From Trypanosoma brucei (lineage: Eukaryota): a DNA stretch of 64,000 nucleotides. The stretch is taken from NCBI GenBank assembly GCA_000002445.1, contig CH464491.1, forward strand, positions 1,824,001-1,888,000, read 5' to 3'. The position numbers and the translations under genes are program-made. This document shows positions 6,541 through 50,682 of the stretch, piece by piece (the first letter of the stretch is position 1; every line of letters begins with the position of its first letter). A model generated the notes under the pieces. The model was given only the letters and a program-made list of their open reading frames with translations, ran no database searches and had not been told where the DNA came from.

Positions 6541-6769
6541 GGGACTTTCCTTCTTATTTATTGACTTGTTTTGCGTGCGTTTCTTTCCTCCCTCCCTTTG
6601 TGCTTCAGGTCCCCTTATGCACCTTATCTCTTATTGTTGTTGCTACACTCCCTTTTTAACAAATTCCTGCTAACGTAAGTCCCAAGCAAGAAATATTGCA
6701 CTTCTGTCAACTGATATGTACTTCGGTTGTTAGCAACTCAATGGCGATATACCGGTGAAGTTCGAACGT

Positions 6770-6835
6770 ACTCCTTTCAAAAAAAAAAGTCGAGATTTGC
6801 TTTTCCATGGCAAGAAGAAAAAAAAGGAGAAAATA
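6770..6835 (-). promoter_or_regulatory. Putative polypyrimidine tract plus AG trans-splice acceptor region for the leucyl aminopeptidase mRNA (minus strand)
   Basis: About 240-290 nt upstream of the ATG (6540) the minus strand reads ...ctctattttctcctttttttttcttcttgcc...tttttttttgaaaggag. This is a pyrimidine tract followed by AG dinucleotides, the canonical kinetoplastid SL-addition signal. The exact acceptor was not determined. Confidence 0.35.
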
Positions 6836-7526
6836 GAGGCGCAGGAGTGACCGCATATTGGTATCAAGGGTGTGAGAGCCTTGGTATCTGTCAAGTTTAA
6901 GAATTTTTTTGCCTTTCAAAAAAAAAAAAAGACAAAGACAAAGTTACCCCATTTCTTCCGTCAACGCAACAGTGGAAGCGTAGAAACAGAGAAAGGGACA
7001 AAGAAACATTAAAAACAGCAGTAAGGGTGATAATGATAATAATAATAATAATAAAAGTACGACCTGTCTCCTGATTTAGCACTTGTTTGGCCCGTAAATT
7101 TTATCCATCCTGCGGGCGACTTGTCATTACCGCCTCCCCCCCCCCCGCCCCTCCTCAGGTAATAATCCGCTGATTCGCTTCTTCAACTTACCTTTCCTTT
7201 ACCCTTACTTTCCACATCTTCTTTTTCCCCCTTTTTAAAAAAATCTCTCTTACTTTTCCTTTTTCCCTTTTCTGTTCCTTTTGATTCAATTTTCCCCAAT
7301 AGTTCTCTTCTTCTCTCTCCTTACATTATTTTTCTTCCTTAGGTTTCATTTTTGACATATTTCCCCCATTCCCAGCACCCATACATCTACAACCCCCTCC
7401 AAATGTTGCAACAGCAAAACGGAATAGGGAAGAAGGTGGAGACAGGACAGGAGAAAAGAAAAAAAGAAAGAAAGAACCAACGTCTAATTCGGATATTCAA
7501 TTAGAGAAGAGGGAATAAACTTACGC

Positions 7527-7552
7527 ATATATATATATATATATATATATAT
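7527..7552. repeat. (AT)13 microsatellite
   Basis: Read directly from the sequence. Confidence 0.95.
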
Positions 7553-10047
7553 TTCCCCTCCACCCTTTCAACTGTAGGATATATATAAAAAAAAGTAATT
7601 GATTGCTAATGCTACTATCATTATTATTAGAAAAAATGACAATAATAGTGATAATAGCAATAACAATTATTATAATAACAGGAATAGCAGTTACATATAT
7701 ATAGTTTTAATATAGATATAAACAGCACGAAACGCCGTGAGTAGTAGTAGTAGTAGTATTCCACCGGCAACTTGTGTAAGTCCAAGTGCACGTGCAGAAA
7801 AGTGAGTGCATATTTTTTTTTTAATTAGAAGTGCTTGGTTGTTTGTTTGTTATTAATGATAATTGAATGGAAAGGGGGAGAAATGAATTTAAATTAGCGT
7901 AGATATTTTTATGTTCGTAAAATAAAGGAAGAAAAAAAACAGTAATTGTGGTCACAAAGACAGCAACTGTGGCAGAATAATATGGAAGGTCTAAATGAAC
8001 GAGAAAAAAAAAACACCGCTGGAGTATCAGAAGAATGTCCCGACACCTTCAGAAACAAAAAACAAAAGTGGGTGAAAAATGATTTCTCATCATTATCAAT
8101 ATATATATATAATACATACATGTTTATATGCATGTATGTATATCATACCCCTACGGGGTCAAAAAATGATTGTAAACATAGCTTAAAACGTTTCAACTGG
8201 ATAAAGAAAGTAAATAACATAAGCGGCGACAACAACTAAAAAGAGAAAAAAAAGGTTATGAAACATGCAAAGAAAAAATAGTAGTAACAATAACAATAAT
8301 AAGAGTAATAGTAATGGCAGTAGTAACAATAATAATAAAAATAAGATAGCGAAATTGGCAGAAGCAACACTTCCTTCCACCCACCACAGACGCCACGCAA
8401 AGAAACAAACAAACAAACTAACACGTAAACGCAAACATGCACGCATATACATATATACATATGTGCATACATTCATTCCTTTTTGTAGCCAATCCCTCAT
8501 TCAATATCTCTGAAAGCTGCAATAATCATTGTAGTAATTCTTATCACAACAGTTCCTGCTTATGTTCCTGTTGTTGTTTTAACAGAAGGGGACAAGAAAA
8601 GGAAAAGGAGAAGCGAATGGGAAACCCTTTTGCCCTTAACCCCTTTTCGTTTCTTCCCCTTTTTTGTTTTGTTTTGTCTTGTTGTTTTTCATTTTTTATT
8701 TTTTTTTCTTTTTGTGATTCTCCCTTAGCTTTTCACTTCTGGACACCCACAGCGCCACGCCTCGATGAGCCAAATCGCTCAGTTGGAGCGGGTAAACGAA
8801 ACAAAACAAGCAAACAAATACAGAGTAAGCAGTAATTTAAAAAAGGGGCTCCAAACAGGCACAAGTATGAACTGTACGCTCACACGCGCAGCAGTTCATC
8901 TCTCACACATGTTAACAAACAAGACATGCTATCACCGAAAATAAGCAGAAATAAGCAGAGTGAAAACAAAAAAAACGAAATAAACGAAATAAAAACAAAA
9001 CGCAACCGGACGCATGCATATACAAACAAAAATGTATACACGTACATACGCACGTGCATACATAAATATATATGTAATTTTTGTGATATATTTATAACAT
9101 ATATATATATAGATAGATAGATAAATTTATCAAGAGGTGTGAAAGGGACAAAAAGAGAGAATTGGAAGCATATGTCATCAACTACATATCATCTGTCACC
9201 GGCCGACACAACAAGCCGCAGTAAACACAACAGCGGGGAAAGGAAAATACACAAATGCGTATACAAGTAAAATAATCAAATTATATACCTGCATTTGTAC
9301 GTGTTTGTGTTTACATCTTTCATTTCCCTCTTCTTGTATTTTCTTTTCTTTTCTTCTCTTCTTTCATTACTTTCTTATTTCATTTTTCAGCCCATTCAAA
9401 ACCAATTTTGGAAATTTTAAGTGAATGGGCTTTCCTCTTTTTCTTTTTCGTTTTTTTTTGTTTTCAGCACAAAATTTCCTTCTTTCCCCCCTCCGTCCTG
9501 CTGCCGCTGTCGCCCCTTTCAGCTTCAAACTCATTGTTACAAAAAGCAACATCCCGCTTCTTTTCGCCATGATATGTGTTGTAGGCATTCAAATACGGTA
9601 CATTTTTCTTTCATACACTCATCTCCTCACCTGCAAACTTTTCCCTATTATTTTTGTTTTGTTTTTGTTTTATTCTTCTTCCTTCCTTCCTTTCTTCCTT
9701 TTCCCCCTTCATCTCTCTCTCTCTCCTTATCCACCCCATTTTTTTTCTGTTTCCATCATCACTACTTTTCATTATATTTTATTAAAATAAAATATAACGC
9801 AGATCTTACTCATTTCCTCTTTTGTTTCTTTCCCCTTCCTTTTGTATTCTTTTTTTTTTCATGAACTTCTCCACAGCTCTTTTGTCATCTCCCTTCTTTG
9901 TTCTTTTTGTTTTATTTTTGAGACATGACCGAATAATCTCCGCTGAATGAAAGGAGGAGAGGGGGAAAAAAAAAACTCACACGCTCCATCATGCATTCAA
10001 CGTTTTCCTTTTCTTTTTTTTCGTTTCTTCTTTTTTTTTTTAATTTA

Positions 10048-10049
<2 letters not shown>

Positions 10050-10078
<29 letters not shown>
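10050..10078. repeat. (TA)14 microsatellite, preceded by T10
   Basis: Read directly from the sequence. Confidence 0.95.
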
Positions 10079-10080
<2 letters not shown>

Positions 10081-11924
10081 CTTTTTTATTACCAATTAGA
10101 ACTATTATTAATATCATTATTTTGCTCCCTTTCTCTTCATCTTTTTTTCTTTTTTCTTCTTCCTTCTTTTTCTTAATGTCCTCCGAGAGGGGGGGGGGTA
10201 AAAAAAAAATGACAAAAAAAAACACACGCCAAATGAAAGAAGAAGAAGAAGGGAAAAAAAAAAAACAGACGCATGCGCATGTTTTTGTTAAGATTCAAAA
10301 ACAATTCTACACCTTCTATTGCGCCGCCACGACACCCTCACCACAACCACCACCATATTTTGAAAAATAAAAGACAAAAACCAAAAAAGAAAAAGGGAGA
10401 AAAAACAAAAGCTCTGAGAAAATCATTAAAGTCACACGTGGAAAGTTAACAAAAATAATAATATAAGTAAGAAAAAGAAGGAAGGAAAGGAGAAAAAGAA
10501 AGGCGGCATATGATACGAAACATCGATTACATTTATTTTATAAAATACCCACTTTGGTAGGAGGGGAGAAAAAATATATATATACACACACACCTCCGCT
10601 AAATTCTCTCTATTTCTTCTTTTCTTTTTTCTTTTCCGTGGGTGTGTTGTTGTTTTTGCTTTTTCTCTTTTTTTTGAAAAAAAATTACGTTTTTTTTTTT
10701 CCACGGGGATCAAATTCTTTCCTTCCGTCAAATCTCCCACACCCGCCCTTGTCAAATTTTTATTTATTTATTTATTTTTCTTTCATTTTGTAATTCCTTC
10801 CTTCCTTCTTTCGTTTCTTTTTCTTTTTCTCTTTTCTTTTGAAAACTTTACTTTTTATTTCCTTTCACCCCGAGTTGGTTGTAAAATTGTTGTTGGTGGT
10901 GGGTGGGAGCAGAAAAGCAGCAAAATGAGGGGGAAAAACAAAAAAAAAGGTGGTGAGCGCATGAGCAAAATAAGACGTGAAATAAAAAAACAAAAGTATT
11001 TATTTAGTATTTATTTTATTTTATCTTTTTTCACTCACCCTCCCAAATTGTATTTGCTACGCTCTCATCAGATACCCGTTACAACAACCACAAAAAGAAG
11101 AAAAAAGGAAAAAAAGAAAAGGAAAAAAAAAGAATGACGAAGCAAGCAGAACGACAACAACAACAATAACGGTGGTATAAATTTAGAAGGCAAAAGTCAA
11201 AAGAGTACAATAATAATATTATTAGTAACAGTAAAGAAAGCGAGTTCGTTTATTAGCTTTTTTAAAACAAAAAAAACAAAAAAAAAGCGTTTTGAACTTA
11301 TTTACATCACGTTCTGGAATAATCTCTTTTTCCTCCTTCCTCTTTCCTTTCTCACGATCCTCGAACCGAACAATAGCCGAACGACGCCACTTTTTTATAT
11401 TTTCTTTCTCTTTTCGCGGATAGAAGTTTGAACGCATAATAACCGTAAAAAAAAAAAAAAATCATGCATGTATTCATATTCTTACCGTCTATTTATATCT
11501 CTTTATACCTCTCCCTTTTTTATTCTCTCTTTCTTTCTCTTTCTCTCTCTTACACACACACACACACATATACATACACATACACATATAGACAGTTTCT
11601 AGATTTAATTGAGAGCACCAGTGACGGAAATGTAAACTTAATATTGTAGGGAAAAAGAAAAAAGGAAACAAAAAAGGACACAAAACACATTCTCCAGTGC
11701 TCTGCAAAAAAGAAAAAAGAAATTAACGGATACAAGAGGGTGTGCAAAGGGGATGGGGAAAAAAAAAGGAAATATATAATAAAACATATAAGAAAACATG
11801 TTCATATATAAAACATACACGTATATCTCTGTGTATATTTTATTTTCATGCATTATATTCCCCATTCATTCATTATTTGTTTTAGTTTCCTCCCCCTCCC
11901 CTTTTTTTATTTTATTTTATTCCG

Positions 11925-11977
11925 TGTGTGTGCATGCGTGTGTGTGTGCATGCGTGTGTGTGTGCATGCGTGTGCGT
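11925..11977. repeat. Three tandem copies of a 16-bp unit GTGTGTGTGCATGCGT
   Basis: The three units are exact. Confidence 0.9.
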
Positions 11978-13114
11978 ATATCTGAATTTGTGGTTTTATA
12001 CTCTCTTCCTTTCCATTATTTCATTTGTACGCAATCAAAAATGTTTCAACAATCGCACATGTTTCATCTTATACGTATTCCTTTTCTTTTCCAGTTTCTT
12101 TACTCATTTAGTTATCCATCCACTTATTCATTCATTATTGATGTGTACATTTTATATGGAGCTTCCTTTAGGGTAATGGAGGGAAACACGTCATTTCCCC
12201 TTTTTTTCTTTTTTTTTAAAAAAAACAAAACAAAACAAAAAGACATAAACATGAAAGCATTAAAACATGTAAAAAAGGGGGAAAAAAAAGCAAAATGAGT
12301 GCTTGGAAGGATGTAAGGAAAATGTGTAAGTTTGTGGGGTGGGGGGTGGGGTGGGGGGGAAAAAAAGACGCGCAAGTGGGTGCACAATAATAAATACTGG
12401 TAAGAAGAAAAAAGAAAAAGAAATAAAAGTCAACAAATATATATATATATATAATTACATATAATTATATATATAATGCAGAGAGTAAACTTAATGCACC
12501 TCACTTGCTTCCCCCTTTCCAGTTAATGCTGCACGCACTTCCTTCACAGCACCGCCACCCCACCTCCTCCTCCTCCCCCCCTCCCCCTTTTCTTTAAAAA
12601 AAGATAAAAACTTTAGATTTTTTTTTTTATTCGTCTCTTTTCTTTATTCCAAAACGGGATATTTTTGATTTGTCAGGCACATCATCCGCAAAATATTTTC
12701 ATCACATGTCTTCTCTTCTCTCTTTTGTTTTTATTTTTTATTTTTTATTTTCTTCTTTTCTTTTCATTTCGTTCATTCACATTAACTTCCCGCCACTGTT
12801 TCTGGAGACGCGTTATGAAAAAAAGAGTTTGAAACCACCGACACAAACAAACACAGCGCACACACACGCAGAAAAGAAAAGAAAACATCCACCAGGTAAA
12901 TAAATAAACAAAATGAATGAATGAAAGCAATAAATGAAAGCAATAAATAAAAAGGGAAGTGAGAGAAATGATGGAGAGAAAGCAAAAAAAAAAAAAGAAG
13001 AGAAAGATATAAATGTGTAAGAACGAATGCATTTGAGTTTCATAAGCATGCCAAAAGGAACTCAAGACGCCGGCTTTTACCTCTTTTTTTTAATTATTAT
13101 TATTATTACACATG

Positions 13115-13172
13115 CACACACACACACACACACCACACACGAGCACACGAATTATATATATATATATATATA
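13115..13172. repeat. Compound microsatellite (CA)n followed by (TA)n
   Basis: cacacacacacacacaccacacac ... atatatatatatatatata. Confidence 0.9.
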
Positions 13173-16100
13173 ATTCATGAACAAGAAAGAAAAAAAAGAA
13201 AGAATTGGAAGAGGAAGAGGAAGAAGAAGAAGAAGCATAAAAGGAATAAAAGATAAAACGAAAAAAAAAGAGATGTAAATAACTACTATAACCATAATGG
13301 AAAAGCAGTATAATGAAATTATATCACCAGTAAAATTATAATAATATTATCATTATTATTAATAACAATCAACAACAAAAATAATGTAAAGACCTTTTTA
13401 AAAAAAGGAAAAGGAAAGGAAAAGGGGGAAAAAACGAGAAACGGCGCGTGTCAAAGCATAATAGAAACAAACGAAACCGATTGCCAAAGGATAGATGTAT
13501 AAGCACACAATAACAAAAAGTACCAATCACACATATGAAAAAAGTAAAAAAAACAAAGGCTCTGTAAAAACCCGATCAAAACGCCCAAAAGAAAAAAAGA
13601 AAACAACTGAAATATAGCCCATTAATCAAGATGAAGAGTATAAGGTGAAGGGGGGACAAAAAAAAAACAACGATCAACCAACAAGAAAGGGAGAGTAAAA
13701 AAAAAAAAAAGGCAAAAAAAGGAATAAGCAAAAACGGACTTGCGCTTGTGGATGATTCCCTTTCTTTTATGAGTATAACGTGAAAAGTATATATGAAAGC
13801 ATCCTTTGGATAATACGCATCCGTTAAACAACAAAACAGAAAAAGAAAAAGAAAAAAAATGCACTCTTTCAACGTGGTACAACACAGAGACCAAAAAAAG
13901 AAAACGTAATCACTCAACCCCGCAAGCACCTCTGAAAGCAAAACAAAAATGAGTTTTAATTCGCTTCCACCAACGTTTTCCTCTTTTTTTCTGTCTCTTT
14001 TCTTTTCTCCTTTTTTTTTTCTTTATGTCTCCTCTTGTTGTTTTGATCAAACCCCTTCAGAGTAGCGCTCATTCAATCATTTTTTTCTTTCCTTTTTTTT
14101 TCGGTTCTTGTTTAACCTCCTCCTGCACAATTTTTTTCTTTTTTGCGGTGCCCCTTTAGTGTCACCCAAGCCATCGAGAAAACATAAAAAGAAAAGCATA
14201 AATAAACGTAAAACACAAAAAAAAAAACAAAAAAGAAAAGAAAAGACAATACAACAAGAAAAACAAGACAATCAATTGGATGAAAAAAGAAAAAGAAAAA
14301 GGGAGGGGGGAAAACACAGAAGCAACACGACACCAAGAAAAAAAAAAGACCAAAAAAAAACTAAGCAGCAGGAATGCGGCTCAGTAACGAAAATATATAA
14401 ATGAAAAAGGAAACCAAGAAAAAAAAAAAGAAGGAAGAGGAGGAGGGATGTGGGGAAGGAGTATTAATATACAGCGGTGCAAAATATTTTAGCCTCCTCC
14501 GTAATCGCCACCACCGCCACCGCCATCATAATTTTCACATCCTCCTCCGAGTCACAAGTGTGCGCGGGATGAACCTCGCAAAAAGAAGAAAAAACATAAA
14601 CGACAAAAAAAAAAAAAATAGAGAATTGTAAAATGCCGCTTTCATCGCCTCCATTTTTGGTGCCATCATTTCGAACCTGCACCTTACCAACGTCTCTTCC
14701 CTGGAAAATAAACTTTTTTTATTTTGAGTTTTTAATCATGTCACGTTTCCTCTCATTTCTTTCCGTCACATCATACATTCGAGATAATATCTCAAAATGT
14801 CTCTCCTTTTTTTTTTACTTCTACAGGTCAGCAGCGGCAAGTTGAAAGGAAACGGGAAAAGCATCACATAAAAAAAAAACACAACGACCTCTACCTCCCG
14901 CTAAATATCAATAGCTTCCGTTCCCTTTTTCATTCTTTATTTTCTCTTTTACATTTTTGTTTCTTCGTGTTCCTTCTTCTACCGTCCCCCTCCCTCACTA
15001 ACTCATTTATTCATTCATTATGCCTCATTTCAGCTGCACTCGTATGGAATGCACGTTAAAAAAAAAAGGATCAGAGAAAGGAAATATTGAACGCTGTCAC
15101 AGAGTCTTCATGTCCATCCACAGTGATACGAACGAAGGTGTTCAAAAAACAAAAAACAAAAACAAAAACAAGGGCAGTTGGGGCAACGCTGCGGTCGCAA
15201 ACGTAAAGAGTAAACAAACACGTCAGACAGTGACAGTAAGCACAACAAACAATCAAACAAAGGCTCGACAGCTAAGAAGACAACGCGAGAGGAGGAAAAT
15301 CAGCAAACAAAGGGGGGAAACATATAGAAAAGTGGGTAAAGTACGAAATTGAGTGGGGCTACAAACAACAAAAGACGTATCGGATGGCGTAGGAATAATA
15401 GTGATACAAAAAAGAAAAAGAAGAAAAGAGGGAGTAACATCGGAATGCAGAAATAAAGAAGGAGTAACACGTACTCCCCCCAACTTTCTCACTGGAGTCA
15501 CTCTTCCACGTGGTTATTTTCATTTCCCTCTAAATCCACCTCTTCTCCTCCTCCACTCCGCAAGGGAAGACAAGTTCCATATATTTTACAGATATTTTCC
15601 TACGAAACGCAAAAAAAAAACCTTCCGCTCCTTTCCCTGACCCCCCCCCAAAAGGTGCAACGCGTTATACTTCGCTTCCCTTCCATTCATATACGTACAC
15701 ATATAAATATTCGATTAAATAAACATATACAAATGTGGATATATGAGCATATATATGTATATGAATGTTCGTATTCAATTGTATGCGTGTATTTTGCCGC
15801 GGTCTGCGCCAAATGGGAAGGAGGAAAAAAATAAAAGCAAAAAACAAAAACAAACAGCACAAAATGAAATAAGATAATACGAACAGAAAAAAGAACGCGG
15901 GAAGACACCGTTCCGCTGGTCAAGGCAGGGTTAGGCCCCCTTATTTACCTCAACATCTTTCGACGGACATTATTTACGTTCATTTCCAACTATTACCTTC
16001 ACGTCAAAAGGAAACTGGTGTCCACTACATTTGTTGCATCCCCATCCTTTTCACCTTTTTTTCTGCCATTGATTCGTTTAACCTCGTTCCCCATCCGGGG

Positions 16101-16376
16101 AGGTCGCACAACTCGAGGCATACGTCAGATGTTCTGTTTATTTCCCCCTCACTTCTCTTCTTTCCCCTTCTCTGCACAAAAACAAGGGAACGGGAGAAGC
16201 ACTTCACCCATTTATTATCCCTCTTATTGGTTTAAAGTCGAAACAAAACAACGTCCCGCTGGCTCCTCCACTCCACGACATGATGCCCCACACGGGGAAT
16301 CCGATGAAAACAAAACGGAACACAACACCAAAGCAAAAGGAGCAAAATAGCGTTCACTCCGGTCAGGGGTTCGGTC

Positions 16377-44370: not shown

Positions 44371-45516
44371 TTAATGCCTATCTGCAAGGAAGCGTCGGCC
44401 CCTAATAGCTTTCAATACCTCCACTCTGAGATTCAGTACGGCCTGCAGGGACTCTGCGCACTGAATTGGTTCTGCTTCACCACACGCAACAAGTTGCGGC
44501 CTGGCGTTAATGATTTCTGAAGTTAACCTGAACTCTTCTTCAGCTCTGTTTATGTCTTTCTGCAGAAGAAAACAGCTTCCCAAATTCAGGGGCAGCCATG
44601 GGTCGTATTTGAGCTTGTCGGTGCCCTCCGCCATCAAACTCTGAAAATCCACAATAGCAGCCTTAAGGAGTTCCTCTTCGTATGCCCGTTGGTCCACTGC
44701 TGCTAGTTCACCAAGCACCTCCGACTTCACATCATCCAAAGATTTCAGAGCTGGCAGAACAACAGAGGCGCCGTCACAACGTTTTGTGGCAGCAGGCTGG
44801 GAACTTTCCTCATCGTCATACTTCCAACTAGACTCAACAATACGCAGTGCAAGACATGCCCGACGCAGCTGAGCATAGTGGTACTCCTCCTTCACCCTCA
44901 GAGCGGATGAGTACGCTTGCAATGCCTCCTTTAATAGGCCTTGCTCTTCATATGCCCTTCCTAGGTTAGCCCACGCGTAGTAATTGGCTTCGTTCAATCG
45001 TATCGCCGTTTTAAAGTCATTAACGCACTGATTGAACTCCGAAGAAAGGAGACGAAGACCAGGTACACGTGTGCTCAAGATACATAAGCCTCTGTGATTA
45101 TATGCGTGGTCATTGTCAGGCTCTACATTGATAATTGAACTGTAATCTACGAAGGCGGAAGACCAATTTGATGAAGCCACGTAGCTTGCTGCACGTGCCT
45201 CCATAGCTCTAATATTTAGTGGATCTTTCTCCAGGCACTGGGAATAACGCTCGATTGCTTTTTCATATTCCTCTTGACCACGAAGGCACTCCCCGAGTAG
45301 GAAATAAGCAACTGTGTTTTCCTCGTATATCTCTATCGCTGCCTCCAAAGCTACCATTGCCTTTACATAATTCGGTTGTGCGTTCCTACCTGTCGGTTCC
45401 AGCAATGAGAGGCCTTCGTCGCACTTTTCGTGAGAAGATTTTATCCGAGCTTCTAACAGCTTTCTCTCCTTGCGCCTGGCTCTCCGCTCCTTACTCGACT
45501 TCGAGCGCTTTGCCAT
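44371..45516 (-). CDS. Tetratricopeptide (TPR) repeat protein; the ORF extends to 45594 but the probable start is MAKRSKSSKERRARRK
   Basis: Repeated 34-residue helical units with the TPR pattern (AYFLLGECLRGQEEYEKAIERYSQCLEKDP; AYNHRGLCIL; YYAWANLGRAYEEQGLLKEALQAYSSALRV). Confidence 0.7.
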   Translation of the reverse strand: MAKRSKSSKERRARRKERKLLEARIKSSHEKCDEGLSLLEPTGRNAQPNYVKAMVALEAAIEIYEENTVAYFLLGECLRGQEEYEKAIERYSQCLEKDPLNIRAMEARAASYVASSNWSSAFVDYSSIINVEPDNDHAYNHRGLCILSTRVPGLRLLSSEFNQCVNDFKTAIRLNEANYYAWANLGRAYEEQGLLKEALQAYSSALRVKEEYHYAQLRRACLALRIVESSWKYDDEESSQPAATKRCDGASVVLPALKSLDDVKSEVLGELAAVDQRAYEEELLKAAIVDFQSLMAEGTDKLKYDPWLPLNLGSCFLLQKDINRAEEEFRLTSEIINARPQLVACGEAEPIQCAESLQAVLNLRVEVLKAIRGRRFLADRH

Positions 45517-45815
45517 TGTATAATTTCTGGTGAGGTGGGAGAGACATCCAAAATAAAAGGGGGACATTGGCTCAAAACACACAGAGACGTACACATTTTC
45601 ATATACAATAATTCAGTGCGGAATATGTCCGTTAGAGTGGGTTTTTGCGATCCCCTAAGGAAAAGCCACCACGAGTTTGCACTCATGCGCTTACGTAACG
45701 AAAGTTAATGTGCTAAAACGAAAGGGGAAAAATCTACAAAACTTTAGCGAAACCTTTAGATGTTAAAGCACACAGATGCATGTAAAAAAAAAAATAATAA
45801 CGCTAATTAGAATTA

Positions 45816-48800
45816 TTAATCCCTGTTAAGGTCAACGTTTTGTGTCGGAACTATACCCGCTTGTGCGTTACCCTCTTTGCGAAATGCAATCGCCCTCATT
45901 GCAAGCAGGTAGTCTTTCTCGCCGGACGAAATTGTTTTATTGAAGCCACGGTCATTATCCAAAATCCCTTGGAATGTTGAGCAAGCCTTGGGAACAACAA
46001 CAAGTCCACACTCCCGCCCTACAGCAACGAGAAAATCAACCGGAACGACGTTGACTTTTTTGAAATGACCCTTCTGCACCGAAAGCAGAAAGTGATTTCC
46101 CACCCTTGGTAAGAAATCTGCGGCCCACTCAATCGCAAAAACACCGTTACCAAAACTGCCTTTAGCAAATAATGGCTCAACATCGAAGAAGCAACCTATA
46201 AATACCCCACCGGGAATTAGGGCATTGGCCACGCTTTCGATAAGCCGCATCGCGGTGTACTCTGTTCCGAATGCATGATGAAATCCGGCAAACGCAGTTA
46301 TGACATGAAATTGTCTTGGGTGGATCTTCGTCAAGTGGTGACTCCAAAAGTTTGCAGAGAACACATCGGCACAGATAACGTCATAAAATGACATCTCTGT
46401 CATTTCATGGCGTAATGAAGAAATGAGCTCGCTCGCAGCATCCACGACACTCGACTTCAAATCGAAACCAATGTACCGAGCCGTTTTGTTCCTTATCCAT
46501 TTTCTTAAAAGGTATCCCCCACAGCAAATCTCAAGCACGTCATTCGTGGCCACCTTAGGAGTTATTATATCTATGAGTAAAGATGCGCACCGGGTTAAGA
46601 CATGGGTTGCAAACGATGCATTTTCCGGTGGGGGGGCCAAATATCCAATTTCTGCTTTCAAGTTAGTAGCAGAAAATGTGCCCCAACAGTTATCACAATA
46701 GAAGTGTTGGTTTAGGGTGTCATTCTTTCCCATAACACAGAACCGACCACAGTATAGACAATCCCCATGGCCTGTTTCGCTCCAGCACTTTTTGCACCAA
46801 TACGCCATGTGCTTCACGTTCATTCTTCCTACGTCACTTACGTTATGACACCTTCCACACCTGTATTTGGCAGCGTCAAGTAGCCACAGCATTTCCTTAT
46901 GCGTCAATCCAGGCACATGAACAAGTCTCTCAACGATGTCGAACGTATCTGGCTGGTACCCCATATCCGGACCACGGCCCCGAAGCAACTCCCACCAATG
47001 AGAACCATCGTCACTTCGCTTTAGGACGCATTCGATGACGGAGCCGCTCCTAAGCTCGGGGGCAGAGTCCCATATATAGTCAACATATTCATTGTTATAA
47101 GACATGGTATTCTTACCGCTGTCAGCCACAAGAAGCCACGCCCGTTTTACATCTCCACTCTCTGGATGGACATTTTCAACGTCACCAACAATAAACACCG
47201 CAGTTGTCGAGGATGTAGGGATCCAGCTATAAACCGAGGTATCTTTCTCTTTGCAGTTGGTAACGTGAGGCACAAAAACTAAGCCCAATGTTGGATGTCC
47301 TGCCGGTGGGTTTCTAAGTAAGCGCTCAGCTTGAGTTGAAACGGTATATATTGTCCGGACAATGGCAACCCGATTGGGGCTCGTGTGTGGACGGCTTGCG
47401 TAATTGTCAAGCAAACACTTTTCCACGTAAAACCACCGCTCTGGAAAGGGTAGCTCTCGCACGTCAGCTTCTTCAAAAGATAGAATATCCTCCACTATTA
47501 TGACATAATCCAGGTAACTTCGGTAGGAAGAAGCAACGACAGCAGAAAAAACGCTATTTTTCGCCCTTCCACCCAGCCCCCGAAAGTAATCTGGAAGTGC
47601 AGAAATGCTTCCCGTCTTAACGTCTACACAAAAAACATCCCCCTCGCTATTTGTAATCAGTAGTACATTTGCTCCCACGGTCTTACTCCGTACATAGTAC
47701 GGGTATTTGGAAAATTCTTCTGCTGCCGCAGCAAACGTCATTCTGTTGAGTGGGACTGGGACACAATTAACAGGAAGCCACTTCTCCGCTATTTTGTGAG
47801 CGTATTCGTATTGAGCAAACGTAATGGACCTTCTGAAGTGCTGGGGAACATAACCAAAGCAAGTGCTCGACATGTCGAATGACCGACCCGCAGCCAGCAC
47901 ATAGTTTAGCGTCGCATTCAAAAACCAACCGTCTGCTTCCGTGCACAGCGTCACACCAAATTCCTTTCGCAACGTTGTATCGCTCACACAAACACCCGAA
48001 ACGCTGGCTGCCGTATCATCACACAGATCCCCAACGAATGCCAGCATATCAAACACTGGACAAACTAACGTCCCTACGTGGTGAGAATAATCGATATTAA
48101 TGTTAACATGAACAACAGTTGGCTTCGGCCAGTCATTTTGTTCCTTCAGAAGTGACAAAAAATGTGTTTCGTATTCTTTTAAACTGGATAATGTACGTGA
48201 AACATCACATGGATACAAAGAAACAAAAAATGACCGATCAGGCTTGCCATCTGATAGCAACTTCTTGCTTGCATCATCCCCTATCGAGACAACCACGGTG
48301 AGAGGAACTTGCATGCTACAAGCAAATGATGCTACGGCATTTACCTCTGTAATACGGAGGGGATGAAAGTTAATTCCCAATAGAGCCGTCTGGAAAAAGT
48401 GAACATCTTCCGGTTGCGGGATGATTATCGACACAAAAAAGTAGTGGCGGTGGGTGCCAGCGTATCGCCTACTTGATGATGTTCCACAGAAAGATCCCAC
48501 GTAACCCACCGCCAAAACCCGAGGATCCTCTCGAAGTGTCCAGAAGTAGTCGTCCCAAGCAGCTTTCAGCTGAGGTGCAACCTCAGCACCGCACTCCTTA
48601 GGAACCTCAACACGAACCAGAAAACCAGGTGCCGCGCTAATGGCACATATGTCGGACACAGTGCCTGTAAGTGACAAAATGGAGCGGGATAGTAGAATTC
48701 CAGTTGGTGCCTCGGTGCCAGAACAATATCCAGCATTCTTCACATTACTGAAGAATGTGGTAGTAAATACCTGTAAAGCATCATCGCCTGGGCCTCCGTG

Positions 48801-48989
48801 GGAATAACTACAGAGTAACCTCTTCGTTAAGAGTTGAAATAATCCACTTGTTTCTTCGGATTCTTTCGTAGCATCATATTTTCTGATGGTTGGTAACATT
48901 AAAAGATACCGGTAAAAATTGCTCCTGTGCGGTGCTCCGTGATCTCCAGCGGCTTGGGGGACGAAGGACCTGGCATTTGCGTTCAACAT
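45816..48989 (-). CDS. Cgm1-like bifunctional mRNA capping enzyme (putative guanylyltransferase region plus C-terminal cap guanine-N7 methyltransferase)
   Basis: The C-terminus has VLEICCGGYLLRKWIRNKTARYIGFDL, which matches the cap N7-MTase AdoMet motif VLDLGCGKGGDLxKW. Upstream segments resemble nucleotidyltransferase motifs IV-VI (GLVFVPH; ...VLKRSDDGSHWWELLRGRGPD ~ WxxxRxRxD). The 1057 aa length and domain order fit the trypanosomatid Cgm1 described in the literature. A Cys/His cluster sits between the two domains. Confidence 0.55.
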   Translation of the reverse strand: MLNANARSFVPQAAGDHGAPHRSNFYRYLLMLPTIRKYDATKESEETSGLFQLLTKRLLCSYSHGGPGDDALQVFTTTFFSNVKNAGYCSGTEAPTGILLSRSILSLTGTVSDICAISAAPGFLVRVEVPKECGAEVAPQLKAAWDDYFWTLREDPRVLAVGYVGSFCGTSSSRRYAGTHRHYFFVSIIIPQPEDVHFFQTALLGINFHPLRITEVNAVASFACSMQVPLTVVVSIGDDASKKLLSDGKPDRSFFVSLYPCDVSRTLSSLKEYETHFLSLLKEQNDWPKPTVVHVNINIDYSHHVGTLVCPVFDMLAFVGDLCDDTAASVSGVCVSDTTLRKEFGVTLCTEADGWFLNATLNYVLAAGRSFDMSSTCFGYVPQHFRRSITFAQYEYAHKIAEKWLPVNCVPVPLNRMTFAAAAEEFSKYPYYVRSKTVGANVLLITNSEGDVFCVDVKTGSISALPDYFRGLGGRAKNSVFSAVVASSYRSYLDYVIIVEDILSFEEADVRELPFPERWFYVEKCLLDNYASRPHTSPNRVAIVRTIYTVSTQAERLLRNPPAGHPTLGLVFVPHVTNCKEKDTSVYSWIPTSSTTAVFIVGDVENVHPESGDVKRAWLLVADSGKNTMSYNNEYVDYIWDSAPELRSGSVIECVLKRSDDGSHWWELLRGRGPDMGYQPDTFDIVERLVHVPGLTHKEMLWLLDAAKYRCGRCHNVSDVGRMNVKHMAYWCKKCWSETGHGDCLYCGRFCVMGKNDTLNQHFYCDNCWGTFSATNLKAEIGYLAPPPENASFATHVLTRCASLLIDIITPKVATNDVLEICCGGYLLRKWIRNKTARYIGFDLKSSVVDAASELISSLRHEMTEMSFYDVICADVFSANFWSHHLTKIHPRQFHVITAFAGFHHAFGTEYTAMRLIESVANALIPGGVFIGCFFDVEPLFAKGSFGNGVFAIEWAADFLPRVGNHFLLSVQKGHFKKVNVVPVDFLVAVGRECGLVVVPKACSTFQGILDNDRGFNKTISSGEKDYLLAMRAIAFRKEGNAQAGIVPTQNVDLNRD

Positions 48990-50611: not shown

Positions 50612-50682
50612 GCGCCGTTGGTCTAGTGGCATGATGGTACCCTCCCAAGGTATTGACCCGGGTTCGATTCCCGGACGGCGCA
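50612..50682 (+). tRNA. tRNA-Gly (anticodon CCC)
   Basis: A 71-nt cloverleaf: acceptor GCGCCGT/ACGGCGC, D-arm with AGTGG, anticodon stem GTACC/GGTAT with loop CTCCCAA (anticodon CCC), T-arm CCGGG-TTCGATT-CCCGG, discriminator A. It is near-identical in pattern to eukaryotic tRNA-Gly-CCC (GCGCCGCTGGTGTAGTGG...GACCCGGGTTCGATTCCCGG.CGGCGCA). CCA is not encoded. Confidence 0.9.

What the first reader, a model, noticed from the sequence alone, without database searches (positions are those of the whole stretch)
46683..46859. A Cys/His-rich putative zinc-binding module between the guanylyltransferase-like and cap-MTase-like regions of the Cgm1-like ORF
Residues ~711-769 read RCGRCHNVSDVGRMNVKHMAYWCKKCWSETGHGDCLYCGRFCVMGKNDTLNQHFYCDNCW. 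That is 11 Cys and 4 His arranged as Cx2CH ... Cx2C ... HxDCx2C ... C ... Cx2C, a treble-clef/RING/B-box-like spacing.

Canonical capping enzymes and cap N7-methyltransferases have no such zinc module in the inter-domain linker. If real, it could mediate recruitment (for example to Pol II or the SL RNA) or RNA binding, and would be a lineage-specific elaboration of the capping machinery. The guanylyltransferase motif I (KxDG) is also not obvious in the N-terminal region, so the N-terminal domain deserves scrutiny.
Basis: partly seen in the sequence, partly recalled or inferred. Interest (0 to 1): 0.5.

Follow-up and report, generated by a model that had tools for sequence, protein, structure and literature searches.

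The report
Two zinc fingers in trypanosome G1-IP
The cysteine-rich stretch is a real, strongly conserved pair of zinc fingers between the capping-enzyme-like and cap-methyltransferase domains, but the protein is the cytoplasmic translation-complex partner TbG1-IP rather than the nuclear capping enzyme Cgm1, and the two fingers were already noted in 2014.

Summary
Residues 711-769 of a 1057-aa minus-strand ORF (45816..48989) contain four CxxC pairs, with 9 Cys and 4 His (not 11 Cys). All eight CxxC cysteines are invariant in 18 kinetoplastid orthologues. None of the four His, nor C751, is conserved.

The module is two tandem copies of a 26-residue Cys4 unit, C-x2-C-x6-G-x2-D-x8-C-x2-C-W. AlphaFold (pLDDT 84.7) predicts each as knuckle, beta-hairpin and helix, a treble-clef pattern. 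The fingers are sequential, not RING or B-box. No Pfam family or solved structure matches significantly. The same unit recurs in dinoflagellate proteins.

The ORF is 100% identical to a T. brucei TREU927 protein and has a mass of 117.56 kDa. Its domain positions match the "117.5-kDa protein" of Freire et al. 2014 (PMC4105752), later named TbG1-IP (Tb927.11.6720). This is a cytosolic EIF4G1/EIF4E5-complex protein that the authors call distinct from TbCGM1. [quoted passage not shown] The Pol II / SL RNA recruitment idea therefore does not apply.

Function remains untested. I infer a zinc-stabilised inter-domain adaptor that probably binds RNA or EIF4G1. In passing, the GTase-like domain lacks most canonical catalytic residues.

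The parts
45816..48989 (-). Whole ORF of 1057 aa and 117.56 kDa. It is identified as T. brucei TbG1-IP (Tb927.11.6720), the EIF4G1-interacting 'capping-enzyme-like' protein.
   Evidence: ORF. It is 100% identical to a T. brucei brucei TREU927 protein. Mass. Domain positions match PMC4105752, and the name and gene ID come from PMC5750579.
48954..48989 (-). N-terminal PAM2-like motif MLNANARSFVPQ, a putative binding site for the PABP MLLE domain.
   Evidence: M1 L2 N3 A6 F9 V10 P11 are invariant. Pfam PAM2 PF07145 gives weak hits in 7 of 8 orthologues, best E 0.0087. G1-IP1 is listed among PAM2 proteins in PMC11754739, and it is enriched with PABP2.
46890..47777 (-). Guanylyltransferase-like domain (NTase plus OB), residues about 405-700, with degenerate catalytic motifs.
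   Evidence: Profile A4 against PDB hits human Mce1 GTase at E 3.3e-8 and C. albicans Cgt1 at E 4e-5. Motif columns are shown. Phyre2 placed the GTase at 409-701 in PMC4105752.
46860..46943 (-). Conserved helical lead-in to the fingers (residues 683-710, ...LVHxPGLTxxEMLWLL...).
   Evidence: Conservation from alignment A3. Predicted helices H2-8, H15-22 and H24-27 in the AlphaFold model.
46782..46859 (-). Zinc finger 1, residues 711-736: CGRCHNVSDVGRMNVKHMAYWCKKCW. The putative ligands are C711, C714, C732 and C735. The unit is basic (pI 9.2).
   Evidence: The model shows hairpin E39-42/E47-50 and helix H51-56, the helix starting just after C732, the first Cys of the second CxxC.
46761..46781 (-). 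Seven-residue inter-finger linker SETGHGD (residues 737-743). G740 and G742 are invariant. H741 is not: it is Y, R or V in deep branches.
46683..46760 (-). Zinc finger 2, residues 744-769: CLYCGRFCVMGKNDTLNQHFYCDNCW. The putative ligands are C744, C747, C765 and C768. C751 is kept in only 5 of 16 sequences.
   Evidence: The model shows hairpin E70-75/E80-83 and helix H84-98.
45855..46667 (-). mRNA cap guanine-N7 methyltransferase domain, residues about 775-1045.
   Evidence: Pfam PF03291 scores 49.2 bits against a cutoff of 26.6, covering residues 804-999. PDB cap MTases 9mg0 and 1ri1 are hit. Phyre2 placed the domain at 774-1039 in PMC4105752.

Best explanation
The segment is the pair of zinc fingers of TbG1-IP (Tb927.11.6720). 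This is a kinetoplastid-specific cytosolic protein with the layout PAM2, unknown N-terminal domain, GTase-like domain, two zinc fingers, cap-MTase domain. It sits on the EIF4G1 scaffold of the EIF4E5 cap-binding complex.

Each finger is a 26-residue unit, C-x2-C-x6-G-x2-D-x8-C-x2-C-W. One zinc is predicted to be held by its own four cysteines. The first CxxC forms a knuckle, a beta-hairpin follows, and the second CxxC sits at the end of that hairpin, just before (finger 1) or at the start of (finger 2) a short helix. This is a treble-clef pattern with the Cx2Cx17Cx2C spacing also seen in GATA fingers and the second half of LIM domains. The two fingers bind zinc sequentially (1+2 and 3+4), not in a RING-like cross-brace.

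What is shown here: the eight cysteines are invariant, the two halves are an internal repeat, and the predicted fold is confident.

What is inferred: (a) zinc is the metal, with two ions per module. (b) The module acts as a rigid, zinc-stabilised adaptor between the OB end of the GTase-like domain and the methyltransferase. (c) Its surface, especially the basic finger 1, most likely contacts single-stranded RNA next to the cap or, alternatively, docks EIF4G1.

The confidence given (0.8) is for identity and architecture. My confidence in the RNA-binding role specifically is about 0.35.
For: Identity:
- 100% identical to a T. brucei TREU927 protein.
- Mass 117.56 kDa.
- The published domain map (GTase 409-701, two zinc fingers 711-780, MTase 774-1039; PMC4105752) coincides with my independent mapping.
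- The N-terminal PAM2 fits the reported PABP2 association.

Fingers:
- All eight CxxC cysteines, plus G721, G740, G742, G754 and F763, are invariant in 18 orthologues, ranging from Trypanosoma to the prokinetoplastid Papus.
- 13 of the 30 invariant positions of the whole protein lie in residues 711-768.
- Unit 1 against unit 2 by hhalign gives probability 97% and E 9e-11.
- The unit always occurs twice, 33 residues apart, in G1-IP. It occurs 2-4 times at variable distances, up to hundreds of residues, in other proteins. Each unit must therefore fold on its own.
- AlphaFold on the 18-sequence alignment gives pLDDT 84.7, with two hairpin-plus-helix units.
- The weak best matches are LIM, GATA and RING-class treble clefs.

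Function hints:
- Finger 1 has pI 9.2.
- The same tandem fingers head dinoflagellate proteins with Arg/Ser-rich tails or a cold-shock-like domain.
- G1-IP binds EIF4G1 directly in yeast two-hybrid, and the interaction region has not been mapped.
Against: - No metal analysis, mutagenesis or binding data exist for the fingers in the literature I could reach.
- I could not inspect the model's coordinates, so sequential rather than cross-brace ligation rests on repeat logic and secondary structure only.
- The basic residues of finger 1 are only moderately conserved.
- The hhalign scores are inflated, because I picked the units with a regex that fixes the Cys positions.
- Equating the ORF with gene ID Tb927.11.6720 rests on mass, domain positions and organism, not on an accession cross-reference.
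Confidence: 0.8

Rival explanations
1. The fingers are the docking site for TbEIF4G1 or another complex member (G1-IP2/RBP43, or the 14-3-3 II exchange). On this view they form a LIM-like protein-protein interaction module rather than an RNA-binding one.
For: - G1-IP binds TbEIF4G1 directly in yeast two-hybrid, and the interface is unmapped (PMC4105752).
- The nearest sequence and fold resemblances, though not significant, are to LIM domains, which are classic protein-binding fingers.
- The module is the densest cluster of invariant residues, as expected for a fixed interface.
Against: - There is no direct evidence.
- The same finger unit occurs in dinoflagellate proteins that have no known EIF4G1-type partner, alongside Arg/Ser-rich tails and a cold-shock-like domain that suggest an RNA context.
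- The invariant residues are mostly Cys, Gly and aromatic. These are structural positions rather than surface positions.
Confidence: 0.3
2. The module is purely structural. It is a zinc-stapled rigid spacer that fixes the relative orientation of the GTase-like OB fold and the methyltransferase, and has no ligand of its own.
For: - The invariant positions are the ligands, the turn glycines and the core aromatics.
- The flanks on both sides are also conserved: LVHxPGLTxxEMLWLL before the fingers and AEIGYxxPPPxNA after them.
- The most conserved 58-residue window of the protein starts at residue 786, right after the module.
- This suggests that the module packs against the N-terminus of the MTase.
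Against: - The same unit exists as isolated repeats in proteins with no enzymatic domains. There it cannot be an inter-domain spacer.
- A pure spacer would not need two fingers at a strictly fixed 33-residue offset in every lineage.
Confidence: 0.25
3. This is the first reader's reading: a RING/B-box-like cross-brace Cys/His module of the nuclear capping enzyme Cgm1 that recruits it to RNA polymerase II or the SL RNA.
For: - The architecture (GTase-like plus cap MTase) resembles TbCgm1.
- The review PMC5750579 says the two proteins are 'related' in domain content.
Against: - The protein is the cytosolic, stress-granule-associated G1-IP, stated to be distinct from TbCGM1.
- The GTase motifs that a review lists for TbCgm1 (KADGTR, DGFIF, WSIERLRNDK) are absent from this ORF.
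- No His is conserved.
- The spacing Cx2C-x17-Cx2C-x8-Cx2C-x17-Cx2C is an internal duplication, not the C3HC4 pattern.
- All RING, B-box and PHD Pfam hits are below cutoff.
Confidence: 0.03
4. The eight cysteines bind iron (rubredoxin-like Fe(Cys)4) or act as a redox switch, rather than holding structural zinc.
For: Two CxxC knuckles per site is also the rubredoxin ligand arrangement. Sequence alone cannot identify the metal.
Against: - The units lack the rubredoxin signature (CxxCG ... CPxCG) and have CxxCW instead.
- No rubredoxin family appears among the Pfam hits.
- The predicted hairpin-plus-helix topology is treble-clef, not a rubredoxin knuckle pair.
Confidence: 0.03

Closest known systems
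TbG1-IP (Tb927.11.6720; the '117.5-kDa protein' of Freire et al. 2014, RNA 20:1272, PMC4105752)
   Same: The organism is the same (100% identity to a TREU927 protein), as is the mass (117.56 kDa). The domain map also matches: GTase 409-701, two zinc fingers 711-780, MTase 774-1039. I conclude that the window ORF is this protein and that the finding is its published pair of zinc fingers.
   Different: Nothing differs at the level tested. The publication gives only a Phyre2 annotation and a cartoon. It gives no ligand assignment, conservation analysis, repeat definition or function for the fingers.
TbCgm1 (nuclear SL RNA cap guanylyltransferase-methyltransferase, Tb927.7.2080)
   Same: Both have a GTase-type domain followed by a C-terminal cap N7-methyltransferase domain in one roughly 1050-aa polypeptide.
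   Different: - TbCgm1 is a distinct gene, nuclear rather than cytosolic.
- Its describers found only 'superficial resemblance' in the MTase domain (P = 0.54).
- A review lists canonical GTase motifs for TbCgm1 that are absent here.
- The Freire paper's text and Figure 7 legend attribute zinc fingers to the 117.5-kDa and 142.1-kDa proteins and mention none for TbCGM1. I could not see the TbCgm1 sequence or the figure.
LIM domain (second, C-terminal finger) and GATA-type fingers: treble-clef Cys4 fingers with Cx2Cx17Cx2C spacing
   Same: The ligand spacing is identical, with a Gly in the hairpin, an aromatic residue before the last CxxC and an aromatic right after it. Compare paxillin [28 protein letters not shown] with YRCGRCHNVSDVGRMNVKHMAYWCKKCW. 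The predicted knuckle-hairpin-helix topology also agrees. LIM, GATA and RING-class structures are the top fold hits, though weak.
   Different: - A LIM domain is a C2HC finger plus a C4 finger joined by two residues. Here two C4 fingers are joined by eight residues, with no conserved His.
- The GATA signature residues are absent.
Pfam PF25017 zf-C2HC_3
   Same: It is the best-scoring Pfam model on finger 1. The Strigomonas orthologue passes the cutoff (26.6 against 24 bits). The T. brucei finger has the C-x2-C-x12-H-x4-C spacing.
   Different: - T. brucei scores 17.9 bits, below the cutoff. Only 6 of 18 orthologues hit at all.
- The would-be His ligand (H729) is Tyr in T. theileri, T. melophagium, T. 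grayi and P0004.
- The match covers only part of one finger.
Uncharacterised dinoflagellate tandem-finger proteins (for example Alexandrium monilatum A0A7S4Q4F4, P0029)
   Same: They have the same 26-residue unit, in tandem with nearly the same offset (35 against 33 residues). They were detected by the G1-IP profile at E 1e-4 to 1e-5. hhalign of G1-IP units against these units gives probability 98-98.7%.
   Different: They have no GTase or MTase domains. The fingers are N-terminal and are followed by Arg/Ser-rich low-complexity tails or a cold-shock-like domain. Their function is unknown.

Membership tests
TbG1-IP (Tb927.11.6720) | A T. brucei protein of 117.5 kDa | tested here: met
   100% identity to a T. 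brucei brucei TREU927 protein. Computed mass is 117.56 kDa.
TbG1-IP (Tb927.11.6720) | Domain map: GTase 409-701, two zinc fingers 711-780, m7G MTase 774-1039 | tested here: met
   Mapped independently here. GTase-like profile hit covers about 429-690, fingers 711-769, and PF03291 804-999.
TbG1-IP (Tb927.11.6720) | PAM2 motif and PABP2 association | tested here: met
   The N-terminal MLNxNAxxFVP is invariant. Pfam PAM2 is hit in 7 of 8 orthologues, weakly.
TbG1-IP (Tb927.11.6720) | Direct cross-reference of this sequence to the gene ID, and cytosolic EIF4G1 binding | not testable with these tools
   No TriTrypDB look-up was available, and the look-up of encoding contigs had no record. Binding data come from the literature only.
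TbCgm1 (nuclear SL RNA capping enzyme) | 1050 aa with six canonical GTase motifs (KADGTR, FVVDAELM, DGFIF, WSIERLRNDK ...) as listed in review PMC3278928 | tested here: not met
   The ORF is 1057 aa, and none of the listed motif strings is present. The authors of PMC4105752 state that the 117.5-kDa protein is distinct from TbCGM1.
mRNA cap guanine-N7 methyltransferase (Pfam PF03291) | Score above the Pfam gathering threshold | tested here: met
   49.2 bits against 26.6, E 5.2e-13, residues 804-999. PDB cap MTases are hit. Catalytic activity was not tested.
mRNA capping guanylyltransferase (covalent nucleotidyltransferase, Pfam PF01331) | Pfam threshold, or detectable homology to solved GTases | tested here: inconclusive
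   PF01331 scores 13.3 bits against 29.6 and is not met. However, a profile of 11 orthologues hits human Mce1 GTase at E 3.3e-8 and C. albicans Cgt1 at E 4e-5. The fold is homologous, but curated family membership is not reached.
mRNA capping guanylyltransferase (covalent nucleotidyltransferase, Pfam PF01331) | Catalytic motif residues: motif I Lys nucleophile (KxDG), motif III Glu, motif IV Asp, motif V Lys-x-Lys. These are established from Ceg1 and Chlorella virus GTase studies, cited from memory. | tested here: not met
   - Motif I aligns as K436-T-V-G in T. brucei.
- That Lys is R in T. congolense, T. theileri and T. melophagium, and Q in T. grayi and P0011.
- Human LLDGEM aligns to VFSAVV, DGLIF to LGLVF, and KWK to S-W-I.
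- No Lys column in the GTase region is conserved.
   No His is conserved. The pattern is a tandem duplication of Cx2Cx17Cx2C. RING-type Pfam hits are all below cutoff. The actual ligation geometry was not inspected.
LIM domain (PF00412) | Cx2Cx16-23Hx2C, then two residues, then Cx2Cx16-21Cx2(C/H/D), scoring above the Pfam cutoff | tested here: not met
   LIM is hit in 6 of 18 orthologues, with best E 0.091. The inter-finger spacer is eight residues, and there is no conserved His.
Pfam PF25017 zf-C2HC_3 | Score above the 24-bit cutoff, and a C2HC ligand set | tested here: not met
   T. brucei scores 17.9 bits. Only Strigomonas passes, at 26.6 bits. H729 is replaced by Tyr in close relatives.
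Treble-clef zinc finger (fold group) | Zinc knuckle (first CxxC), beta-hairpin, and second CxxC at or just before the N-terminus of a helix | tested here: met
   The AlphaFold model (pLDDT 84.7) shows E39-42/E47-50 and H51-56 for finger 1, and E70-75/E80-83 and H84-98 for finger 2, with the second CxxC at the end of the hairpin, just before (finger 1) or at (finger 2) the helix start. This is a prediction only, and the coordinates were not inspected.

The most novel reading that the evidence does not exclude
The 26-residue finger C-x2-C-x6-G-x2-D-x8-C-x2-C-W may define an uncatalogued zinc-finger family. It is shared by kinetoplastid G1-IP and by dinoflagellate Arg/Ser-rich and cold-shock-like proteins, which come from the two big protist lineages that trans-splice a capped spliced leader onto every mRNA. 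On this reading the finger works as a reader of single-stranded RNA next to the cap. In G1-IP it would cooperate with a catalytically dead GTase-like domain, repurposed as a cap or GTP binder, to select or remodel mRNA 5' ends inside the EIF4E5-EIF4G1 complex.
Probability: 0.12. Interest if true: 0.6.

Novelty: already known. Interest (0 to 1): 0.25.

Why it matters
G1-IP is an essential but enigmatic component of a trypanosome cap-binding complex. It is a capping-enzyme look-alike sitting on an eIF4G in the cytoplasm, and nobody knows what it does to mRNA.

The existence of the fingers is not news, since they were reported in 2014. This analysis sharpens what is known about them:
- They hold the densest cluster of invariant residues in the protein.
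- They are two autonomous Cys4 units, not a RING.
- They belong to no catalogued family.
- They sit next to a GTase-like domain that has lost most of its catalytic residues in most species.

Together these points suggest that G1-IP may be more of an RNA or cap reader and adaptor than a bifunctional capping enzyme. That is directly testable with finger mutants and GMP-labelling assays. For the genome scan itself, the lesson is that the 'Cgm1' label was a misidentification of a paralogous architecture.

Tried and rejected
- **Working assumption that the ORF is TbCgm1.** I held it until, where the motifs a review lists for TbCgm1 proved absent from the ORF, where the ORF was identified as TbG1-IP. 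I then rejected it.
- **Protein searches that returned nothing.** The search for homologous proteins with the module alignment and with a dinoflagellate tandem-finger sequence found nothing. The word index appears to miss short Cys-rich queries.
- **Primary TbCgm1 papers.** Takagi 2007, Ruan 2007 and Hall & Ho 2006 are not held. I could not compare with the real TbCgm1 sequence.
- **First AlphaFold run.** With only 5 sequences it was too poor to use (pLDDT 49.5).
- **N-terminal 410 residues.** No PDB or Pfam homology beyond PAM2 was found. In particular there is no second, canonical GTase hidden there.
- **His741 of the conserved GHG as a ligand.** Rejected, because it is Y, R or V in deep-branching orthologues.
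Full report
**1. The observation**

The finding's coordinates (46683-46859) read as nonsense with stop codons on the plus strand. On the minus strand they give CGRCHNVSDVGRMNVKHMAYWCKKCWSETGHGDCLYCGRFCVMGKNDTLNQHFYCDNCW. This is residues 711-769 of a single 1057-aa ORF, 45816..48989(-).

Otherwise the four CxxC pairs and their order are as described.

The placement is also right. Pfam finds the mRNA cap guanine-N7 methyltransferase domain at residues 804-999 (49.2 bits, cutoff 26.6). A profile of residues 405-700 from 11 orthologues hits the guanylyltransferase domain of human capping enzyme (3S24, E 3.3e-8) and Candida Cgt1 (1P16, E 4e-5). The single sequence reaches only E 0.073 on Pfam PF01331.

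**2. Is it more than chance?**

Residue shuffles of the ORF gave the pattern C..C.{15,19}C..C at least once in 0.35% of 20,000 trials and twice in none.

Conservation is more telling. An exhaustive HMMER search with the module profile found 33 proteins. Fourteen had E below 1e-10, and most of these have the same overall architecture. Named sources include the following:
- Trypanosoma theileri, T. melophagium, T. grayi and T. congolense (partial)
- Porcisia hertigi, Strigomonas culicis and Angomonas deanei (fragment)
- the deep-branching prokinetoplastid Papus ankaliazontas

In the 18-sequence module alignment the invariant columns are C711, C714, G721, C732, C735, G740, G742, C744, C747, G754, F763, C765 and C768. 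W736, D757, W769 and F772 are nearly invariant.

In a full-length alignment of 16 sequences only 30 of 1057 positions are invariant, and 13 of them lie within 711-768. Of the protein's 33 cysteines, only the eight in CxxC pairs are invariant, and C751 is kept in 5 of 16. H715, H729 and H762 vary. H741 of the striking GHG becomes Y, R or V in deeper branches.

By mean column conservation the module (0.575) is comparable with the MTase (0.534) and better than the GTase-like region (0.465). The single best 58-residue window starts just after it, at residue 786.

The ligand set is therefore eight Cys, consistent with two Zn(Cys)4 sites, not a Cys/His mixture.

**3. Anatomy**

A regex scan shows that every orthologue has exactly two copies of a 26-residue unit, C-x2-C-x6-G-x2-D-x6-[FYW]-x-C-x2-C-W. 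The copies are at a fixed 33-residue offset, joined by a seven-residue linker with consensus xETGHGD.

The two units are homologous to each other (hhalign probability 97%, E 9e-11). The caveat is that I selected the units with a regex that fixes the Cys positions.

The same unit occurs 2-4 times in unrelated proteins picked up by the profile search. Sometimes the copies are more than 100 residues apart across low-complexity linkers, for example P0022 at positions 87, 203 and 334. Each unit must therefore be an autonomous one-zinc finger. This argues for sequential ligation (pairs 1+2 and 3+4) and against a RING-like cross-brace.

AlphaFold with 5 sequences was poor (pLDDT 49.5). With the 18-sequence alignment it was confident (pLDDT 84.7, pTM 0.64). 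The model shows three short lead-in helices and then two repeats of beta-hairpin plus helix, with the second CxxC of each unit at the end of the hairpin, just before or at the helix start. That is the treble-clef pattern. I could not inspect the coordinates.

**4. What family?**

None that is catalogued. The results were:
- **Pfam:** only sub-threshold, mutually inconsistent hits for T. brucei (zf-C2HC_3 17.9 bits against 24; DZR_2, PHF5, LIM and CEBP_ZZ).
- **zf-C2HC_3:** one orthologue (Strigomonas) edges over the cutoff (26.6 bits). The would-be His ligand is Tyr in close relatives.
- **PDB sequence profile:** the best hits are second fingers of LIM domains (E 0.016-0.08), with identical Cx2Cx17Cx2C spacing.
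- **Foldseek against PDB:** best E 0.012, TM at most 0.35.
- **BFVD:** nothing meaningful.

The fingers are thus generic treble-clef Cys4 fingers with LIM-finger-2 or GATA spacing, but they are not members of those families.

Non-G1-IP carriers of the unit include an uncharacterised protein of the dinoflagellate Alexandrium monilatum. Relatives have the tandem pair at the N-terminus, followed by Arg/Ser-rich tails or a cold-shock-like domain (CSD E 3.9e-4, below cutoff).

**5. Which protein is this?**

Two things did not fit.

First, a review lists KADGTR, FVVDAELM, DGFIF and WSIERLRNDK as the GTase motifs of TbCgm1 and gives its length as 1050 aa (PMC3278928). None of these strings is in this 1057-aa ORF.

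Second, the N-terminus MLNANARSFVPQ looked like a PAM2 motif. It is invariant in orthologues and gives weak Pfam PAM2 hits in 7 of 8.

Following PAM2 in the trypanosome literature led to a list of PAM2 proteins that includes 'G1-IP1' (PMC11754739). That in turn led to Freire et al. 2014 (PMC4105752). That paper describes a 117.5-kDa protein co-purifying with TbEIF4E5 and TbEIF4G1. [quoted passage not shown] The authors say it has only 'superficial resemblance' to TbCGM1 and is 'distinct from' it.

The window ORF has a computed mass of 117.56 kDa and the same domain positions. It is 100% identical to a T. brucei TREU927 protein that lies on a 5.26-Mb contig. That size would fit chromosome 11, as I recall chromosome sizes, rather than chromosome 7 where CGM1 (Tb927.7.2080) lies.

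The protein was renamed TbG1-IP, Tb927.11.6720 (PMC5750579). The literature reports that it:
- binds TbEIF4G1 directly in yeast two-hybrid
- is enriched with PABP2 (PMC6075789)
- is a starvation stress-granule protein (PMC4652759)
- is counted essential in high-throughput RNAi

I found no later paper in the library that addresses the fingers' function.

**6. How it most likely works**

Shown: there are two conserved, autonomous Cys4 units with a confident treble-clef-type prediction. They sit between the OB end of the GTase-like domain and the start of the MTase, and both flanks are also conserved.

Inferred: there are two structural zinc ions. The module is a rigid adaptor whose surface binds something.

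I favour single-stranded RNA near the cap (about 0.35), for these reasons:
- Finger 1 is basic, with pI 9.2.
- The other carriers of the unit look like RNA-processing or RNA-binding proteins.
- The module lies at the entrance of a cap-methyltransferase domain.

The main rivals are docking of EIF4G1, whose binding site on G1-IP is unmapped (about 0.3), and a purely structural spacer (about 0.25). These are not mutually exclusive, and none has been tested.

**7.

In the profile-to-human-Mce1 alignment, motif I KADGTR aligns to K436-T-V-G-A-N, LLDGEM to VFSAVV, DGLIF to LGLVF, and KWK to S-W-I.

The motif I Lys is R in T. congolense, T. theileri and T. melophagium, and Q in T. grayi and P0011. 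It is K in T. brucei, Porcisia, Strigomonas and Papus, and Papus keeps a near-canonical KVEGQR and VDGLLF.

No Lys column in the GTase-like region is conserved. By the established residue requirements of covalent nucleotidyltransferases (from memory: Shuman-lab Ceg1 and Chlorella virus studies), guanylyltransferase activity is doubtful in most orthologues. The literature calls G1-IP a 'predicted bifunctional capping enzyme'. I found no activity assay.

**8. Verdict**

The module is a real, lineage-specific zinc module. However, it sits in TbG1-IP and not in Cgm1, it is not RING- or B-box-like, and it is already on record as 'two zinc fingers'.

Novelty is therefore 'already known'. The increment here is the ligand assignment, the 26-residue repeat definition, its distribution from Papus to Trypanosoma and in dinoflagellates, the lack of any catalogued family, and the degeneracy of the neighbouring GTase-like domain. 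Interest is modest.

Noticed in passing
window 46890-47777 (-), residues 405-700 of the ORF: The GTase-like domain lacks most canonical catalytic residues. Motif I is K436-T-V-G, and that Lys is R or Q in T. congolense, T. theileri, T. melophagium, T. grayi and P0011. Motif III DGE, the motif IV Asp and motif V KxK are all replaced. Papus keeps KVEGQR and VDGLLF. The domain may be a pseudo-guanylyltransferase in most species, although the literature calls the protein a predicted bifunctional capping enzyme.
   Followed up: partly
window 48954-48989 (-), residues 1-12: The N-terminus MLNANARSFVPQ is invariant across orthologues and matches the PAM2 (PABP MLLE-binding) consensus. Pfam PAM2 gives weak hits in 7 of 8 orthologues. 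This turned out to be known: G1-IP1 is listed as a PAM2 protein in PMC11754739, and the protein is enriched with PABP2 in PMC6075789.
   Followed up: yes
window 47778-48953 (-), residues about 13-404: A large conserved N-terminal region (for example GFLLSRxxLSL, GTYRHYFF, LCDD) shows no detectable homology to any PDB chain or Pfam family. Its function is unknown.
   Followed up: partly
P0019 (Papus ankaliazontas, EukProt EP00760_P018730), 1177 aa: The prokinetoplastid homologue carries an extra P-loop segment (VLVAGAPGTGKT) upstream of a more canonical GTase, followed by the same two fingers and the MTase. This layout (NTPase-GTase-ZnF-MTase) links G1-IP to the NTPase/GTase proteins of trypanosomes (TbCe1, G5-IP, and the 142.1-kDa NTPase/GTase/zinc-finger protein mentioned in PMC4105752).
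   Followed up: no
P0025, P0028, P0029 (Alexandrium monilatum), P0031, P0036, P0037; P0022, P0027, P0034, P0038: One group (P0029 from the dinoflagellate Alexandrium; P0025, P0028, P0031, P0036 and P0037 of unnamed marine origin) carries the same 26-residue finger as an N-terminal tandem pair. It is followed by Arg/Ser-rich tails (P0025, P0029, P0031, P0037) or, in P0036, a cold-shock-like domain. A second group of unnamed origin (P0022, P0027, P0034, P0038) carries 2-3 copies that are more widely spaced, in several cases across acidic linkers. The unit matches no Pfam family above cutoff.
   Followed up: partly
Review PMC3278928 compared with PMC8311971 and this ORF: The GTase motifs that a 2012 review quotes for TbCgm1 (KADGTR and others) are not in this ORF. 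This discrepancy was the first sign that the ORF is not Cgm1.
   Followed up: partly
window 50612-50682 (+): A tRNA-Gly (anticodon CCC) lies on the plus strand about 1.6 kb upstream of the G1-IP start codon. It is on the opposite strand to every ORF of 250 aa or more in the window, all of which are on the minus strand.
   Followed up: partly
window 6541-16376: A stretch of roughly 10 kb has no ORF longer than 166 aa on either strand, inside an otherwise densely coding minus-strand gene array. A second gene-poor stretch lies at 24.0-31.8 kb, where the longest ORF is 238 aa.
   Followed up: no
window 44371-45594 (-): The gene immediately downstream of G1-IP encodes a 407-aa protein whose sequence looks TPR-like by eye. 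This was not analysed.
   Followed up: no
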